From an uncultured archaeon (GTDB lineage Archaea; Asgardarchaeota; Thorarchaeia; Thorarchaeales; Thorarchaeaceae), in assembly GCA_964558645.1 (NCBI GenBank), contig CAZLEV010000002.1, forward strand, positions 256,001 through 320,000: 64,000 nt of DNA. Direction: 5' to 3'. Below the pieces are notes generated by a model, which did not search any database, was not told the origin of the DNA, and saw only the letters and a program-made list of their open reading frames with translations. Positions 38,670 through 57,197 of this stretch are shown piece by piece. A program made the position numbers and the translations under genes. The stretch's first letter is position 1; each line of letters begins with the position of its first letter.

Positions 38670-39080
38670 ATGTCCACTCGAGGAGAACCGATGTATCGCG
38701 GGCATAAACTAGAGGACCTAGCCAAGATGAGTATGGACGAACTCATCGAACTGCTCCCCGCGCGCAGGCGCCGCACCCTCAAGCGCGGCCTGCCCCCACG
38801 ACAGAAGAAACTCCTCAGAAAACTCCGCGATGCGCGCAAGGCCACTCGTAAGGGCAAAGACGTGGTTGTTCGGACGCACTGCCGTGATATGGTCATCCTG
38901 CCTGAGATGGTGGATCTGACCATCGCCATTCACGACGGGCACGAGTTCAAACGCGTCAAGATAATTCCTCAAATGATTGGACATGTATTGGGAGAGTTCT
39001 CCCCAACTGGCAGAGAAGTAAGGCATGGTAGCCCTGGAATCGGCGCTACAAAGAGTTCTGCGTACGTGCCGCTGAAATAA
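38670..39080 (+). CDS. rps19p: 30S ribosomal protein S19 (uS19)
   Basis: YRG..LE.L, LPAR.RR.L.RG, RTHCRDMVILPEM, MIGH.LGEFS.T...V.HG.PGIGAT.SS.YVPLK. Confidence 0.97.
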   Translation: MSTRGEPMYRGHKLEDLAKMSMDELIELLPARRRRTLKRGLPPRQKKLLRKLRDARKATRKGKDVVVRTHCRDMVILPEMVDLTIAIHDGHEFKRVKIIPQMIGHVLGEFSPTGREVRHGSPGIGATKSSAYVPLK

Positions 39081-39114
39081 AGCGGAAAGACGAACTTTTA
39101 GTAACTTCAAGGGG

Positions 39115-39162
39115 TTATGAGTACTTCTTTCTCTTGCCTTGTTCTCAGTATGGACCTTGTCC
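39115..39162 (-). pseudogene. Degenerate 3' fragment of gene X
   Basis: DKVHTENK(frameshift)KRKKYS* resembles DKARTERKKKRKK of the 52790 copy. Confidence 0.5.
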
Positions 39163-39419
39163 AGTTGATAGGTTCCGATTTCCGCAGACCACTTCTCCGA
39201 TTCCCTCGGTTTCCTCCTAGGTGTCTACAACCACGAGACAGTCTGGATTGTGTGAAGGATGATGCCTTTGCCGTTCACTTCTTGACGAAACGGAATATCA
39301 GTGAGTGTCCGGTTACGCTTATAACCAATTGACCCTAACTTCTCCTGTTGGTGGGATGTTTCTATGGTAAAGGAACTATCCAAGGCCGCGAGGTCAGGAA
39401 TTGAGGAGGTAACAAGAAC

Positions 39420-39698
39420 TTGCCATTTCCAGCTTTAGAAGACCTACTTGACGAACCGCCGGAGAGCTTCCCCAGTAGATCCAGTGTCAAGATTCTTCGT
39501 GGAAAGACCTTGACTAGAATCGGCAAGTGGCACAAAGCAGCTGTTCTCGTCGATTCGGGTGGGAAGAAACAGCTTAGACTATATGGTTGGCGGAAAAGCA
39601 AGGAAGGTATATGGAAGGTCATTCAGAAATTCAATGTGTCCAGAGGTTATGCAGCAAGAGTTGGGGCCATACTGGATGCATTTGCCATAGGTGAGTGA
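39420..39698 (+). CDS. Small basic beta-rich hypothetical protein
   Basis: GGAGG RBS, TTG start; overlaps the next ORF (GTGA). Confidence 0.75.
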   Translation: MPFPALEDLLDEPPESFPSRSSVKILRGKTLTRIGKWHKAAVLVDSGGKKQLRLYGWRKSKEGIWKVIQKFNVSRGYAARVGAILDAFAIGE

Positions 39699-40885
39699 CA
39701 AGGATGACTTCGGATTCCGAACAGGAATCTTATCGTATTCTTCCAGACTGCGAATACTGGCTCGAGATGCAGATAAACCCCGAAACAGTCTTGAAGAAGC
39801 TCAATTCCGAAAGGGAATTCAAAACAATCGGCAAATTCAAAGCATCAGACTTGTCCGAGTTCTTTGAAGCTAACATTGACGGATCCACGTCCCATATTTC
39901 CAAGAATGATCTAGTTGCTCTGATTATAAGAAGACATTCTGATCTTAAGAACACCCTTCTCGTCCTAGCCCAGTACTCGCGTCATGTGAGCAAGAAGGCC
40001 TTACAAGAATACTGTATGAAGAAGGACTTGAACGGGGGAAGTAGAACTACAGTCCAGTTGGCACTGCTTCTTTTCAACAATGCACCGGAAGTTCTTCGAG
40101 AAGCACGCGTTGCCAGTATGGGCTATAGAATTCGAACCTGTTACAATTTCATAATCCCTAACAACCTGGTGATTAGGAGAATCAATGAAGAGAGCGCAAC
40201 TGATGAGCTATCGGAGCTAATAGAGAACGAGCTGTCAACCGCTGAGAAGAGAGTCAAGTTGGTAGAACACCATATTGATGACACACGAGAAACTTATCGG
40301 CTCTTCGTGAAATACGAAAATCATGAGGAAAAGGTTGTTGAATGGGATAGCGCGTTTTGGGTGAAGCCCATAGATTGGATTGTTATTGACTATGATACAG
40401 ATTCCGGATTTCTCGACATTCGTTGTAGAAACGGGGCAAGAGCTAGGAACATGGTTTTGCTTTTGTCGCGAATCACAACAGGGCACGACGATGCATTTGA
40501 AACACAAGCAGTTTATGACTGGAGCGATTCTTTAGAGATACATGAAGTGGAATTAGAGTCAGACAAGTTTGAAGTCTTGGATCACGATATCAGAAGAATC
40601 AGTGTAGAAAACGCGCCTCTATCGAATCGTCCTAGTTTCGTTATCCGGGGAACCAAACTCAAGAGGGCGCTAGATGAGCTAGCGGAGAATCATGACTTTA
40701 ACCTCCTATCGGGAGCAGATATCAGATCATTGGATATTAAAATCAAGTTCGAATATGATGGCGTGACTGACGAAACGACTATCCGTTTGAACAGAGATAC
40801 TGAGAAGCTTGTAATGACAAAAGAAACAAATGAACAAGCGAAAAGGCATCTGATCGCTTACATTGGGAAACTCCTTACAGGTTGA
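39695..40885 (+). CDS. Hypothetical soluble protein of a candidate defence operon
   Basis: 396-aa ORF, AT-richer than its neighbours, coupled to both flanking ORFs. Confidence 0.8.
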   Translation: MTRMTSDSEQESYRILPDCEYWLEMQINPETVLKKLNSEREFKTIGKFKASDLSEFFEANIDGSTSHISKNDLVALIIRRHSDLKNTLLVLAQYSRHVSKKALQEYCMKKDLNGGSRTTVQLALLLFNNAPEVLREARVASMGYRIRTCYNFIIPNNLVIRRINEESATDELSELIENELSTAEKRVKLVEHHIDDTRETYRLFVKYENHEEKVVEWDSAFWVKPIDWIVIDYDTDSGFLDIRCRNGARARNMVLLLSRITTGHDDAFETQAVYDWSDSLEIHEVELESDKFEVLDHDIRRISVENAPLSNRPSFVIRGTKLKRALDELAENHDFNLLSGADIRSLDIKIKFEYDGVTDETTIRLNRDTEKLVMTKETNEQAKRHLIAYIGKLLTG

Positions 40886-56099: not shown

Positions 56100-56244
56100 A
56101 TTTTTGTTTCCGATGTCAGAGAGGCTAATATTTTAGCCTCATCCTTCTTTTCCTTTTTCTCTTCCAAGGAATTTCTCGAGTGTGCTTCTCGCCTGTACCC
56201 TCCCAATAGTGACGACTTAGGCTCTATTGTCGGCTCAGGAGAGC

Positions 56245-56400
56245 GATGAAGAGAACATCTGATTGGACTCCGAGTCGGCCAAAGAGGAGCTGTTGACTCT
56301 GCTGGATTCCTTTCCGGATGAACGGCTGGAGGGCATCGAGGTTTCGCGAGAAGTCAATGATCCAGAGAACGAGGGGCCGAAACTCATCCTTCCGGTTTAG
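56245..56400 (+). pseudogene. C-terminal remnant of an SRAP (YedK/HMCES-like) protein
   Basis: EENI*LD....ELL.LL..FPDE.L....VSREVNDPENEGPKLI resembles the SRAP C-terminus with the Trp of WLD read as TGA. Confidence 0.6.
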
Positions 56401-56496
56401 GATAGGCCTCATCATAGACAGTCTACCACTGAGCCAGACATCCGGAGCAGATGCATTCAAATCCACGAAAACCAGTGCATTCAGAGGTGTGAGGTA

Positions 56497-57081
56497 GTGA
56501 ATGCCGAGAGAGTATCATCCCAGAGTCGGCGATTTGTCCCTCCCGTAACAGGCCTATGGCCCGGCGAGAGGATAGTCTGGATCCGAAGACCAGGAACCGG
56601 GTTCTGGATAACGTGTTTTGGGATTTTGTTGGTATTAAGCATTATTTCGCTCCCCTTCACGATTGCGTCCGATCTTGGTCTCTCAGGAGCAGCTCCCCCG
56701 CTCTTTGCGGCAGTGGGTGGTATTGTCATCTTCATGTACTTCTATATCGTGAGAAGACGTACAAGATACTACCTGACAGATGAGCGGATAATCGAGGTCC
56801 GTGGCGACCGTATCGTCAAGGAGATGTCATTGGAGCGTTTCGCTGGAAGACCCATGGGCCAGTTTTTGGAGTCACGTGTCACACATACTGTCAACAACAT
56901 GCCGATGTATGACATTCGGATATATGACCCTCTCTCAGATGAGACCATGGTGCTCAAGAGCCTGGATGGCTTCTCTGCATCGTGGCTAGAGGAGATTGGG
57001 AAGATACGGGAGTGCCGTTATTGTGGTCTTGAAAATGTGGCCATAGCGGGCAAGTGTAAGAACTGTGGAGCGGTGCTGTAA
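56497..57081 (+). CDS. Membrane protein with bacterial PH-like domain and zinc ribbon
   Basis: L.PGE.I.W..RP, two TMs, T.Y.LTD.RII, CRYCG..CKNCG. Confidence 0.75.
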   Translation: MNAERVSSQSRRFVPPVTGLWPGERIVWIRRPGTGFWITCFGILLVLSIISLPFTIASDLGLSGAAPPLFAAVGGIVIFMYFYIVRRRTRYYLTDERIIEVRGDRIVKEMSLERFAGRPMGQFLESRVTHTVNNMPMYDIRIYDPLSDETMVLKSLDGFSASWLEEIGKIRECRYCGLENVAIAGKCKNCGAVL

Positions 57082-57161
57082 CCTATACAGTACAAGGGGA
57101 GTATTTTCTCTAGGTCAACTGACGTGCTAGAAGGAGAATAGAGAAGAACGGGATAAAAGAG

Positions 57162-57197
57162 GCCTCCACCAAAGCTACGTACGCGCCACTCAAGTAA
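57162..57197 (+). pseudogene. Degenerate uS19 3'-end copy at the distal island boundary
   Basis: ASTKATYAPLK* versus GATKSSAYVPLK*. Confidence 0.6.

What the first reader, a model, noticed from the sequence alone, without database searches (positions are those of the whole stretch)
39012..57197. Cassette array built on the 3' end of ribosomal protein uS19, with no integrase recognised
Seen: the last codons of uS19 recur in the same orientation at 42359-42382, 50095-50133, 55338-55406 and 57162-57197 (a much weaker trace at ~52771-52799). At 39080, 42382, 50133 and 55406 the uS19 end is followed within ~35 nt by the convergent 3' end of gene X. Different cargo lies between junctions: a nuclease operon; the ATPase-LAGLIDADG-X triad; two surface proteins; membrane/wHTH/PepSY genes; DUF4397-like, SRAP remnant and PH-like genes. 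No tyrosine/serine recombinase or transposase was recognised. Inference: incoming DNA repeatedly restores uS19 with its own 3' end and pushes the old end outward, giving an additive, integron-like array anchored in an essential protein gene rather than a tRNA. Decay does not increase steadily with distance, so the junctions may also serve as recombination anchors for shuffling.
Basis: partly seen in the sequence, partly recalled or inferred. Interest (0 to 1): 0.92.

Follow-up and report, generated by a model that had tools for sequence, protein, structure and literature searches.

The report
Homing-nuclease cassette array behind uS19
In a family of Thorarchaeota (Asgard archaea), foreign DNA has repeatedly replaced the last 27-28 codons of the essential ribosomal protein gene uS19 and pushed the old end downstream. 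This has built stacks of defence and surface-protein cassettes, and the only mobility enzyme in sight is a giant LAGLIDADG homing endonuclease, not an integrase.

Summary
The array is real but less complete than described. Three of the five displaced uS19 ends stand above chance: 55318-55406 (strong), 50095-50133 and 57162-57197 (moderate). The ends at 42359-42382 and about 52771-52799 do not. Four gene X tails are highly significant.

An independent metagenome spans the junctions at 99% identity or more. Another holds strains in which uS19 runs straight into the 55.3-kb end, which is an empty site lacking 16.3 kb.

About 25-30 of 74 genomes of the family carry extra uS19 ends, up to eight per array. 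All begin at one sharp point (GARTTY|, codons 112-113). They differ mostly by synonymous changes, so each once served as the working end.

No tyrosine or serine recombinase or casposase is linked to the array, and three array-bearing genomes have no tyrosine recombinase hit at all. The 1242-aa protein folds as a double-motif LAGLIDADG endonuclease with both catalytic Asp kept. Relatives sit 50-1000 nt from the uS19 stop in at least ten genomes.

Best reading: repeated endonuclease-driven, end-replacing insertion, as in the mobile endonuclease ORFs (mORFs) of fungal mitochondria, followed by decay of the engine. Cleavage is untested. I rate it a new variant of a known kind and of high interest.

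The parts
37943..38590 (+). TPR-repeat gene, the conserved left flank
   Evidence: Pfam TPR families. The order glmM-TPR-uS19 is kept across the family.
38661..39080 (+). uS19 (139 aa), the only full copy in the genome. It stands apart from the main ribosomal protein operon.
   Evidence: PF00203, E = 3e-29; one full copy in the assembly.
38997..39080 (+). Current end module of uS19: codons 113-139 plus the stop. This is the segment that recurs downstream; its left limit follows GAGTTC (codons 112-113).
   Evidence: The left limit of all remnants lies just after GARTTY. Population joints lie at 38992 and 38996.
39081..39135 (.). Spacer with hairpin after the uS19 stop, followed by a trace of the X tail of about 10 codons
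   Evidence: Homologous to the uS19-X spacer of G001 and G002; reading-frame trace. The X-tail DNA profile does not detect it.
39420..42268 (+). Cassette 1 cargo: three co-directional genes of 92, 396 and 460 aa
   Evidence: Only a weak match to the FokI cleavage domain in the 460-aa protein (E = 0.0016, below the cut-off). No PADLOC, PHROG or NCBIfam hit. A minor strain of run X2 carries it as here.
42408..43061 (-). Gene X (217 aa): two winged-helix domains and a long C-terminal helix. It is a DNA binder, not an enzyme.
   Evidence: AF2 model with pLDDT 93. Weak fold matches to ScpB, RTP, PadR and TFIIIC. No conserved catalytic residue among 31 homologues. Its start overlaps the stop of the upstream gene.
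43058..46786 (-). 1242-aa protein with three parts: an acidic low-complexity N-terminus, HTH domains, and a 540-aa C-terminal module containing a double-motif LAGLIDADG endonuclease fold
   Evidence: Two conserved motifs, G.GLSDGH and ..CEDGSF. Both Asp and one Lys are kept in at least 90% of sequences. AF2 pLDDT 89. Every top Foldseek hit is a LAGLIDADG protein: I-Tsp061I 4e-6, PI-SceI, and I-DmoI with TM 0.6-0.67.
46783..49845 (-). Membrane-anchored ATPase of the HerA/FtsK superfamily (DUF87), 1020 aa
   Evidence: Weak matches to HerA, DUF87, CedD and PADLOC HerA models. The nearest Atlas clusters carry DUF87, HerA_C, FtsK or TrwB families.
50095..50133 (+). Displaced uS19 end (reads GTTKSPDAVPLK*), decayed
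   Evidence: nhmmer E = 0.012. It is in frame, ends on a stop and is followed by the hairpin and an X tail.
50142..50316 (-). X tail remnant (about 48 codons)
   Evidence: tBLASTn 6e-12; DNA profile 7e-44.
50467..52541 (+). Cassette cargo: two predicted surface proteins of 320 and 331 aa
   Evidence: Big_7 Ig domain and a zinc ribbon in the second; nothing in the first. This stretch is missing in the main strain of run X2 (joint 50343->55457).
52796..52927 (-). X tail remnant (about 40 codons), with no significant uS19 trace in front of it
   Evidence: tBLASTn 4e-13; DNA profile 6.5e-32; uS19 test P = 0.79.
52927..55239 (-). Cassette cargo: a membrane protein, a winged-helix protein with a membrane tail, and a PepSY-domain protein
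   Evidence: HTH_20 and PepSY matches.
55318..55406 (+). Displaced uS19 end. Its last 22 codons and stop match uS19 in protein and differ from it only by synonymous changes.
   Evidence: nhmmer 1.3e-18; tBLASTn 4e-11. 16 synonymous against 3 non-synonymous codon differences over the 27-codon end. It is the working end in other strains.
55407..55516 (-). X tail remnant (about 23 codons, with a stop)
   Evidence: tBLASTn 1e-5; DNA profile 2.5e-22.
55695..57081 (+). Outermost cassette cargo: a DUF4397 protein and a 194-aa membrane protein with a zinc ribbon
   Evidence: PF14344, 4e-10.
57162..57197 (+). Outermost displaced uS19 end (reads ASTKATYAPLK*)
   Evidence: P = 0.005 at its expected position; nhmmer E = 1.7 over the whole window.
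57518..58174 (-). KDPG aldolase, the first gene of the right flank
   Evidence: PF01081, 1e-41.

Best explanation
**What is shown.** The stretch 39.0-57.2 kb is a layered record of repeated insertions at one precise point of uS19, just after GARTTY at codons 112-113.
- Each insertion brought its own copy of the last 27-28 codons, a stop, a hairpin spacer and further genes.
- The previous end was left downstream as a dead copy.
- The same stacking occurs across the family, with cargo of surface, defence and transport genes.

**What is inferred about the engine.** The engine is the X / HTH-LAGLIDADG / ATPase unit at 42.4-49.8 kb.
- Its LAGLIDADG nuclease would cut uS19 alleles that lack the insertion, at or near the codon 112-113 boundary. 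This boundary lies in a very conserved stretch of the protein.
- The break would be repaired from a donor chromosome that carries the insertion. The left homology arm is the uS19 body. The right arm is the old end with whatever follows it.
- Everything in between would be copied in. This is how the mobile endonuclease ORFs of fungal mitochondria are thought to replace the C-termini of atp6, atp9, cox2 and nad3.

**What is inferred about decay and renewal.** Once an insertion is fixed, the selfish genes decay by deletion. This leaves X tails of 10-48 codons next to surviving cargo. A new variant can then invade, so ends pile up.

**Accessory genes (speculative).** The two-winged-helix protein X probably helps in DNA recognition or control. 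The membrane HerA/FtsK-type ATPase may move DNA between cells.
For: **The array and its history**
- One remnant is strong and two are moderate, and four X tails are highly significant.
- Independent contigs span the junctions, and alleles with an empty site exist.
- Differences among ends are mostly synonymous.
- The left limit is sharp in dozens of remnants from several genera.
- About 25-30 of 74 family genomes have extra ends, against 0 of 16 outgroup genomes.

**The nuclease**
- The LAGLIDADG fold is confident. Both motif Asp and a Lys are conserved, and each Asp sits at the end of its helix.
- The window's gene is an intact 1242-aa frame.

**The link between nuclease and site**
- A relative of the nuclease lies convergent to uS19, 50-1000 nt from its stop, in G002, G001 (degenerate), G057, G062, G065, G069, G078, G096, L089 and L090.
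- In G096 and G062 neither X nor the ATPase is seen beside it.
- A sister subclade sits between L23 and L2.
- Decayed copies exist, as a homing cycle predicts. The own genome holds a 234-aa fragment at the L23-L2 site.

**Absence of other machinery**
- Recombinase and casposase searches found nothing linked to the array.
- No recombinase appears among the cargo.

**Precedent**
- Fungal mitochondrial mORFs show the same pattern: an inserted foreign C-terminus, a LAGLIDADG ORF, the native C-terminus left downstream, and synonymous divergence between the copies (PMC3630166).
Against: - Cleavage of uS19 is untested, and no recognition site is defined.
- The working uS19 regenerates the same protein motif at the boundary. 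Immunity of the invaded allele is therefore assumed, not shown.
- Long arrays, such as the eight remnants of G081, contain no nuclease, X or ATPase.
- The remnant next to the intact engine is the most decayed one both here and in L090. Simple layering does not predict this.
- In G096 and at the L23-L2 site the nuclease sits without any duplicated end.
- Across genomes, extra ends and the nuclease family co-occur only weakly: 22 of 30 genomes with extra ends have it, against 30 of 56 without (related genomes are not independent).
- The uS19-adjacent nucleases do not form a resolved exclusive clade.
- LAGLIDADG folds can also be non-catalytic, as in WhiA, which is among the fold matches.
Confidence: 0.5

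Rival explanations
1. Site-specific integration of circular elements by an unrecognised recombinase. Each element carries an attP that mimics the last 84 nt or so of uS19. It recombines at GARTTY with the chromosomal gene, as tRNA-targeting integrative elements do, and elements accrete in tandem. The recombinase could be a new fold within the ATPase or the giant protein. It could also be a host enzyme acting in trans, as with elements that exploit Xer.
For: - Dozens of remnants share a sharp, fixed left limit and a repeat of constant length. This is the classic mark of attL/attR.
- Small cassettes of one to three genes without any mobility gene suggest mobilisation in trans.
- A 23-nt motif is conserved upstream of both ATPase genes of this genome. 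In the window it abuts the 50.1-kb remnant and could be part of an att arm.
Against: - No tyrosine or serine recombinase or Cas1 lies in or near any array examined.
- G003, G007 and G022 have arrays but no PF00589 hit anywhere, at 91-94% completeness.
- X has no catalytic residues.
- The N-terminal parts of the giant protein are poorly conserved.
- No back-joining (circular) contig was seen. Contigs are a weak test of this.
Confidence: 0.28
2. No dedicated machinery. The island is a recombination hotspot. Ordinary homologous recombination between strains uses uS19, the repeated ends and the X tails as anchors, and it swaps and stacks cassettes. The LAGLIDADG gene is a passenger that happens to home next to uS19.
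For: - One joint runs from X tail to X tail (50343->55457).
- A module swap has its breakpoint at 44496, inside the giant gene. It coincides with a rise in GC from about 48% to about 60%.
- Many assembly contigs break just after uS19, which shows population heterogeneity.
- In G096 the nuclease sits alone with no array.
Against: - Homologous recombination can shuffle existing repeats, but it does not create a new copy of the end at the same nucleotide each time.
- The ends share only 65-90% identity over 81 nt, which is poor substrate for homologous recombination.
- The limit is too sharp.
Confidence: 0.15
3. Assembly or binning artefact: the repeats caused contigs of several strains to be chained into a false array.
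For: - The genome is a metagenome bin with 6.3% contamination.
- The source run's own contigs break at 46.1 and 55.37 kb.
Against: - Run X3, from another study, covers the junctions with contigs of 99% identity or more.
- A minor strain of run X2 matches 38991-43737 with only 6 differences.
- The same architecture is assembled independently in many genomes.
Confidence: 0.02

Closest known systems
Mobile endonuclease ORFs (mORFs) of fungal mitochondria, which replace the C-terminus of atp6, atp9, cox2 or nad3 (Allomyces macrogynus; Glomus sp.; PMC3630166)
   Same: - A LAGLIDADG (or GIY-YIG) endonuclease gene enters the 3' part of a conserved gene.
- It carries a foreign in-frame C-terminal segment that restores the gene.
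- The native C-terminus stays downstream as a duplicate.
- The two copies share about 64-81% of their nucleotides yet are nearly identical in protein.
- The inserted end shows a horizontal origin.
   Different: - Here the host is an archaeal chromosome and the target is a ribosomal protein gene.
- The nuclease is convergent to the target, not fused to it or co-directional.
- It is a 660-1400-aa protein with added HTH and acidic regions.
- It travels with a winged-helix protein and a membrane ATPase, and kilobases of cargo come along.
- Up to eight layers accumulate.
Free-standing homing endonuclease genes of phages (T4 seg and mob genes)
   Same: - The nuclease gene sits between conserved genes.
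- It is presumed to cut the neighbouring conserved gene in genomes that lack it, so flanking DNA is co-converted.
- The solitary nuclease 49 nt from uS19 in G096, and the copies between L23 and L2, look like this.
   Different: - Phage cases leave no duplicated gene end and build no arrays.
- They use GIY-YIG or HNH nucleases rather than a LAGLIDADG one.
Tandem accretion of integrative elements at the 3' end of a gene (ICE/CIME accretion in streptococci; tRNA-gene islands; casposons at the EF-2 or tRNA 3' end). Stated from my own knowledge.
   Same: - The target's 3' end is restored by the element.
- Direct repeats bound each unit.
- Decayed, non-autonomous units lie beside an autonomous one.
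- The island carries defence and surface genes.
   Different: Those systems depend on a tyrosine or serine recombinase or on a Cas1 casposase. None was found here.
Integrons
   Same: An additive array of small cassettes at one fixed site. Cassettes are present or absent among strains.
   Different: - There is no IntI.
- The repeat is a protein-coding gene end, and no attC-type site was identified.
- Cassettes point either way and carry their own signals.
- The anchor is an essential gene.
Integrated elements described so far in Asgard archaea (Atabeyarchaeia elements, PMC11529989; Heimdallarchaeial aloposons, PMC8813620, which I listed but did not read)
   Same: Integrated, strain-variable elements with defence cargo in Asgard genomes.
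   Different: The Atabeyarchaeia elements I read about use tyrosine integrases and short att motifs. None involves a LAGLIDADG protein or uS19. A full-text search for LAGLIDADG together with Asgard returned nothing relevant.

Membership tests
LAGLIDADG homing endonucleases (single-chain, two-motif) | Two LAGLIDADG helices, each ending in a conserved acidic residue followed by Gly | tested here: met
   The motifs G.GLSDGH and ..CEDGSF are present. The Asp corresponding to residues 955 and 1052 is kept in at least 90% of 16 homologues. Helices 239-256 and 339-353 of the model each end on that Asp.
LAGLIDADG homing endonucleases (single-chain, two-motif) | The alpha-beta-beta-alpha-beta-beta-alpha core fold, present twice | tested here: met
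   AF2 pLDDT 89. All of the top 50 Foldseek PDB hits are LAGLIDADG proteins. TM-score normalised to I-DmoI is 0.6-0.67.
LAGLIDADG homing endonucleases (single-chain, two-motif) | Cuts a long (about 20 bp) site in alleles that lack the element | not testable with these tools
   This needs a cleavage assay.
LAGLIDADG homing endonucleases (single-chain, two-motif) | The gene resides at or beside its own target in a conserved gene | tested here: met
   It lies convergent to uS19, within 50-1000 nt of the stop, in at least ten genomes. A sister subclade sits between L23 and L2.
End-replacing mORF elements (fungal mitochondria) | The insert carries a foreign in-frame C-terminal segment, and the native one is left downstream | tested here: met
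   The working end and the displaced ends are in the same register. Codon differences are 16 synonymous against 3 non-synonymous here, and 183 against 63 and 26 against 0 in relatives.
End-replacing mORF elements (fungal mitochondria) | The endonuclease ORF is fused to, or directly follows, the inserted C-terminus on the same strand | tested here: not met
   The nuclease gene is convergent. In most cases gene X separates it from the end.
End-replacing mORF elements (fungal mitochondria) | Mobility depends on the endonuclease | not testable with these tools
   This needs a mating or homing assay.
Integrative elements driven by a tyrosine or serine recombinase (including ICE/CIME accretion) | A recombinase gene lies in the element or array | tested here: not met
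   - One PF00589 hit in the genome, on another contig.
- No PF00589 hit in G003, G007 or G022.
- No PF16795 hit.
- PF00239 below the cut-off.
- No recombinase among the cargo scanned.
Integrative elements driven by a tyrosine or serine recombinase (including ICE/CIME accretion) | Direct repeats of the target's 3' end bound each unit, and the target gene is restored | tested here: met
Integrons | An IntI integrase lies next to attI | tested here: not met
   The left flank is glmM-TPR-uS19, and there is no tyrosine recombinase in the window.
Integrons | attC hairpin sites bound the cassettes | not tested
   No attC model was run. What recurs at the junctions is the coding end of uS19, followed in many cases by a short hairpin that looks like a terminator.
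Casposons | A Cas1-type casposase lies in the element | tested here: not met
   The only Cas1 in the genome is at C4:109177-110016.
Elements that exploit host Xer recombinases (IMEX) | A host Xer recombinase is present and the junction is dif-like | tested here: inconclusive
   The own genome has one tyrosine recombinase. Three array-bearing relatives show none, but they are 91-94% complete bins. No dif-like palindrome is shared by the junctions; one occurs only in the window's own variant.

The most novel reading that the evidence does not exclude
An integrase-free platform for accumulating cassettes in Asgard archaea. A giant HTH-LAGLIDADG nuclease, helped by a two-winged-helix DNA binder, targets the ultra-conserved C-terminal coding region of uS19. 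A membrane HerA/FtsK-type ATPase moves the DNA between cells. The three genes would then form a self-transmissible homing element. It drags defence and surface-protein genes along and, through repeated invasion and decay, builds a functional analogue of an integron.
Probability: 0.3. Interest if true: 0.9.

Novelty: new variant of a known kind. Interest (0 to 1): 0.8.

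Why it matters
**A different way to build a variable island.** In prokaryotes, variable islands beside a conserved gene are explained by integrases. Here a whole family of Asgard archaea builds such an island beside an essential ribosomal protein gene, and no integrase can be found. 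The pattern is the one known from endonuclease-driven C-terminus replacement in fungal mitochondria.

**Consequences if the LAGLIDADG protein is the engine.**
- Homing endonucleases could mobilise multi-gene cargo and shape prokaryotic pangenomes, not only introns and inteins.
- It would explain why the C-terminus of uS19 is a mosaic among lineages. This matters for phylogenies built on ribosomal proteins.
- It would imply regular chromosomal DNA exchange between Thorarchaeota cells.
- It would add a large uncharacterised family of long-site nucleases. The family has 243 clusters at 50% identity with E <= 1e-30 and carries modular DNA-binding additions.

**A practical point.** The locus systematically breaks metagenome assemblies at uS19, a marker gene.

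Tried and rejected
- **Complex prediction.** The job pairing the LAGLIDADG module with X gave no verdict, so it says nothing about binding.
- **Sequence searches of the solved-structure library.** Neither the giant protein nor the ATPase gave a usable hit.
- **Family libraries.** PHROG, PADLOC and NCBIfam named nothing in X or in the three cassette-1 genes.
- **tRNA as the target.** The window holds no tRNA gene. The second engine copy lies near tRNA-Leu(CAG), but no repeat of the tRNA bounds it.
- **X as the recombinase.** Rejected. It is a tandem winged-helix protein without conserved catalytic residues.
- **An X tail right after 39080.** The DNA profile did not detect one.
- **uS19 traces at 42359-42382 and 52771-52799.** Not above chance.
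- **Duplicated L23 or L2 ends at the L23-L2 site.** None found.
- **Nearest relatives of the window's ends.** The comparison was uninformative; the best identities were 74-83%.
- **The palindrome TTGTATACAA beside the 50.1-kb remnant.** It occurs eight times in the genome with no link to other engine copies.
- **Circular forms.** The contigs show no back-joining joint. Contigs are a weak test, so this is not evidence of absence.
- **Word-indexed protein searches.** They returned only a handful of Thorarchaeota hits because of candidate limits. The exhaustive search showed that the family is much larger.

Full report
**1. The organism and the locus**

The window is C2:256001-320000 of a 3.63-Mb metagenome bin (92.8% complete, 6.3% contamination). 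The few database relatives of its proteins that carry a name are labelled Candidatus Thorarchaeota.

uS19 lies at 38661-39080 (+). It is a 139-aa archaeal-type protein (PF00203, 3e-29) and the only full copy in the assembly. It does not sit in the main ribosomal protein operon. It follows glmM and a TPR gene, and that left flank is kept across the family.

**2. Checking the observation**

I built a profile of the last 93 nt of uS19 from 16 family genomes and scanned the window with it.

| Claimed uS19 end | Profile result | Test at its expected position |
|---|---|---|
| 55318-55405 | E = 1.3e-18 | P < 2e-4 |
| 50095-50133 | E = 0.012 | not significant with this scoring (P = 0.36) |
| 57175-57196 | E = 1.7 | P = 0.005 |
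| 42359-42382 | not found | P = 0.06 |
| about 52771-52799 | not found | P = 0.79 |

- The 55.3-kb remnant encodes 22 codons identical in protein to the working end.
- Gene X is intact at 42408-43061 (-).
- Its C-terminal tail recurs at 50142-50316, 52796-52927 and 55407-55516. tBLASTn gives 6e-12, 4e-13 and 1e-5, and a DNA profile gives 2.5e-22 or better.
- Directly after the working uS19 there is only a spacer of about 55 nt. It is homologous to the uS19-X spacer of the two same-genus genomes, and a trace of about 10 codons of the X tail follows.

So three displaced uS19 ends and four X ends are real. Two of the listed uS19 traces are not distinguishable from chance.

**3. The array is not an artefact, and it varies among strains**

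I laid the contigs of four public runs on 38200-58199.

- **Run X3** comes from another study and matches at 99% identity or more. It spans the junctions at 42.4, 50.1, 52.8 and 55.4 kb.
- **Run X2** is an independent freshwater-sediment metagenome. It holds several arrangements:
  - Contigs join uS19 at 38992 or 38996 directly to 55328 or 55350. One has a 27-nt replacement that reads LSITNKQVR. In these strains the 55.3-kb remnant is the working end, and the 16.3 kb in between are absent.
  - A contig runs from the uS19 stop (39079) into sequence that matches the window again only from 44496 onward. What lies between is not known. The simplest reading is a strain in which the engine follows uS19 directly and carries a diverged X and nuclease domain.
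  - A joint runs from the X tail at 50343 to the X tail at 55457. That strain lacks the two middle cassettes.
- The breakpoint at 44496 corresponds to residue 763 or so of the giant protein, which is the start of its conserved C-terminal module. It coincides with a rise in GC from about 48% to about 60%.

**4. The pattern holds across the family**

- Among 86 genomes of the family, 74 have uS19. About 25-30 of these carry extra copies of the C-terminus only. These copies start at codons 101-119 and end at codon 139.
- None of the 16 genomes searched from other families of the phylum has an extra copy.
- Arrays reach eight remnants in 15 kb in G081, seven in G069, and four in each of G086 and G088.
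- The left limit of the repeat is the same everywhere, just after GARTTY (Glu112-Phe113).
- Most remnants still encode (F)SxPMxQV[KR]HG[NS]PGIGATKSSAYVPLK followed by a stop.

Differences among ends within one genome are mostly synonymous:

| Genome | Synonymous codon differences | Non-synonymous |
|---|---|---|
| G081 | 183 | 63 |
| G069 | 38 | 8 |
| G088 | 26 | 0 |
| L090 | 13 | 1 |
| This window | 16 | 3 |

Random decay would give roughly the reverse ratio. Each remnant therefore diverged while it was serving as a working uS19 C-terminus, and the ends were brought together by transfer.

The cargo consists of NosD/beta-helix, Ig-like, beta-propeller and papain-type surface proteins, an ABC ATPase, an MFS transporter, ankyrin and TPR proteins, PLD and Mrr nucleases, and an HD-CE/HATPase protein. 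No recombinase is among them.

Many contigs of the bins end at uS19 or just after it.

**5. What could do the inserting**

Searches for known machinery found nothing linked to the arrays.
- The own genome has one PF00589 hit, on C1, and no SSV-type integrase.
- It has no resolvase above the cut-off, and its only Cas1 is on C4.
- Of five array-bearing relatives, three have no tyrosine recombinase hit at all. The other two have one each, on other contigs.

The only unit that looks autonomous is the three-gene block at 42.4-49.8 kb.
- **Gene X.** The model (pLDDT 93) shows two winged-helix domains and a long C-terminal helix. It has weak fold matches to ScpB, RTP and PadR, and 31 homologues share no catalytic residue. 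It is a DNA binder.
- **The 1020-aa protein.** It is a membrane-anchored ATPase of the HerA/FtsK (DUF87) superfamily.
- **The 1242-aa protein.** It has an acidic N-terminus, HTH domains, and a conserved 540-aa C-terminal module with two LAGLIDADG-like motifs. The model of that module (pLDDT 89) matches only LAGLIDADG proteins: I-Tsp061I, PI-SceI, I-DmoI and WhiA. Unlike WhiA as I recall it, it keeps both motif Asp and a Lys in at least 90% of sequences.

The nuclease family has no Pfam model. It is large, with 243 clusters at E <= 1e-30. It is present in 52 of 86 family genomes, with up to ten copies, many of them fragments.

**6. The link between the nuclease and uS19**

- A member of the family lies convergent to uS19, 50-1000 nt from its stop, in G002, G001 (degenerate), G057, G062, G065, G069, G078, G096, L089 and L090.
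- In G096 a 663-aa version sits 49 nt from the stop with no X, no ATPase and no duplicated end. In G062, X is also absent. The nuclease is therefore the constant partner of the site.
- A sister subclade, with the ATPase, sits between L23 and L2 in another Thorarchaeote. In the own genome that copy has decayed to a 234-aa fragment.
- Residence beside highly conserved genes, patchy distribution and frequent decay are what a homing endonuclease shows. I recall that the motif around the boundary (MIGHxLGEFS) is conserved as far as eukaryotic uS19. This rests on memory and was not tested here.

**7. Most likely mechanism**

The closest precedent is the mobile endonuclease ORF of fungal mitochondria. 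In Glomus and Allomyces, a LAGLIDADG or GIY-YIG ORF enters the 3' part of atp6, atp9, cox2 or nad3 together with a foreign C-terminal segment. The native C-terminus stays downstream. The two copies share about 64-81% of their nucleotides but are almost identical in protein (PMC3630166).

I propose the same logic here.
1. The nuclease cuts alleles that lack the insert, near codons 112-113.
2. Repair copies everything between the uS19 body and the old end from a donor chromosome.
3. The engine then decays, which leaves X tails of different lengths beside the cargo.
4. New variants invade again.

Steps shown:
- the structure of the junctions
- their sharp limit
- the coding history of the ends
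- the empty-site alleles
- the nuclease fold and its conserved active-site residues
- its association with the site

Steps inferred:
- cleavage
- immunity of invaded alleles
- repair from a donor
- any role of X and the ATPase

**8. What does not fit**

- The remnant next to the intact engine is the most decayed one, both here and in L090.
- Long arrays lack the engine altogether.
- The nuclease can sit at uS19 or at L23-L2 without any duplicated end.
- The uS19-adjacent nucleases do not form a resolved exclusive clade.
- For these reasons an unrecognised site-specific recombinase remains a serious rival, and plain homologous recombination surely contributes to the shuffling.

**9. Novelty**

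- The Atabeyarchaeia elements I read about use tyrosine integrases (PMC11529989).
- Full-text searches linking LAGLIDADG to Asgard archaea, or homing endonucleases to ribosomal protein genes in archaea, returned nothing like this.
- I class it as a new variant of a known kind. It is end-replacing homing as in organelles, but in an archaeal chromosome. It has a three-gene engine and multi-gene cargo, and it stacks into arrays across a whole family.
- Earlier notes of this scan on the same stretch had flagged the three genes as a possible engine and noted the composition break. I tested both here.

Noticed in passing
Own genome C10:20617-24435 (L008 6615-10435); also L091 149-10208: The main ribosomal protein operon reads L3-L4-L23-[nuclease]-L2, and no uS19 follows L2. 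In L091 a full ATPase and a 1414-aa LAGLIDADG protein lie between L23 and L2. In the own genome only a 234-aa C-terminal fragment of the nuclease remains there.
   Followed up: partly
Own genome C2:112640-120191 (L004 8641-16191), with tRNA-Leu(CAG) at L004 16593-16682: A second, divergent copy of the X / LAGLIDADG / ATPase unit lies next to a tRNA-Leu gene, with no detectable bounding repeat. Further X homologues lie at C2:91773 and C2:98614. PD-(D/E)XK-like and AbiTii-like genes lie alongside. This may be a second island.
   Followed up: partly
window 43900-44500: GC rises from about 48% to about 60% inside the giant gene. The same place is the breakpoint (44496) at which strains of run X2 switch from diverged to near-identical sequence. 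The nuclease module and X seem to be exchanged as one unit against the N-terminus and the ATPase.
   Followed up: partly
window 50071-50093 and L004 about 16400-16440: A 23-nt motif, ATTGGACAWWTGTATACAATG, is shared upstream of both ATPase genes of the genome (21 of 23 positions identical). In the window it directly abuts the 50.1-kb uS19 remnant. Its first 9 nt also occur in uS19 codons 104-106.
   Followed up: partly
G095:C107:8101-10044 (L061): Three tandem copies of the X domain are fused in one open frame of about 670 aa.
   Followed up: no
G083:C1:1263512-1263922 and 1318581-1318991: This single-contig genome has two full-length uS19 copies about 55 kb apart, on opposite strands.
   Followed up: no
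G003, G007, G022 (whole genomes): These bins give no PF00589 tyrosine recombinase hit at all, at 91-94% completeness. Even a XerA-type enzyme was not detected with this model.
   Followed up: no
window 39420-42268: A three-gene operon (92, 396 and 460 aa) has no family match except a sub-threshold similarity to the FokI cleavage domain. It may be an undescribed defence module carried as cassette cargo.
   Followed up: partly
L089 14455-17562: In one relative, two surface-protein genes (DUF7379/TSP3 and BNR) are inserted upstream of uS19, between the TPR gene and uS19. The other side of uS19 can therefore vary as well.
   Followed up: no
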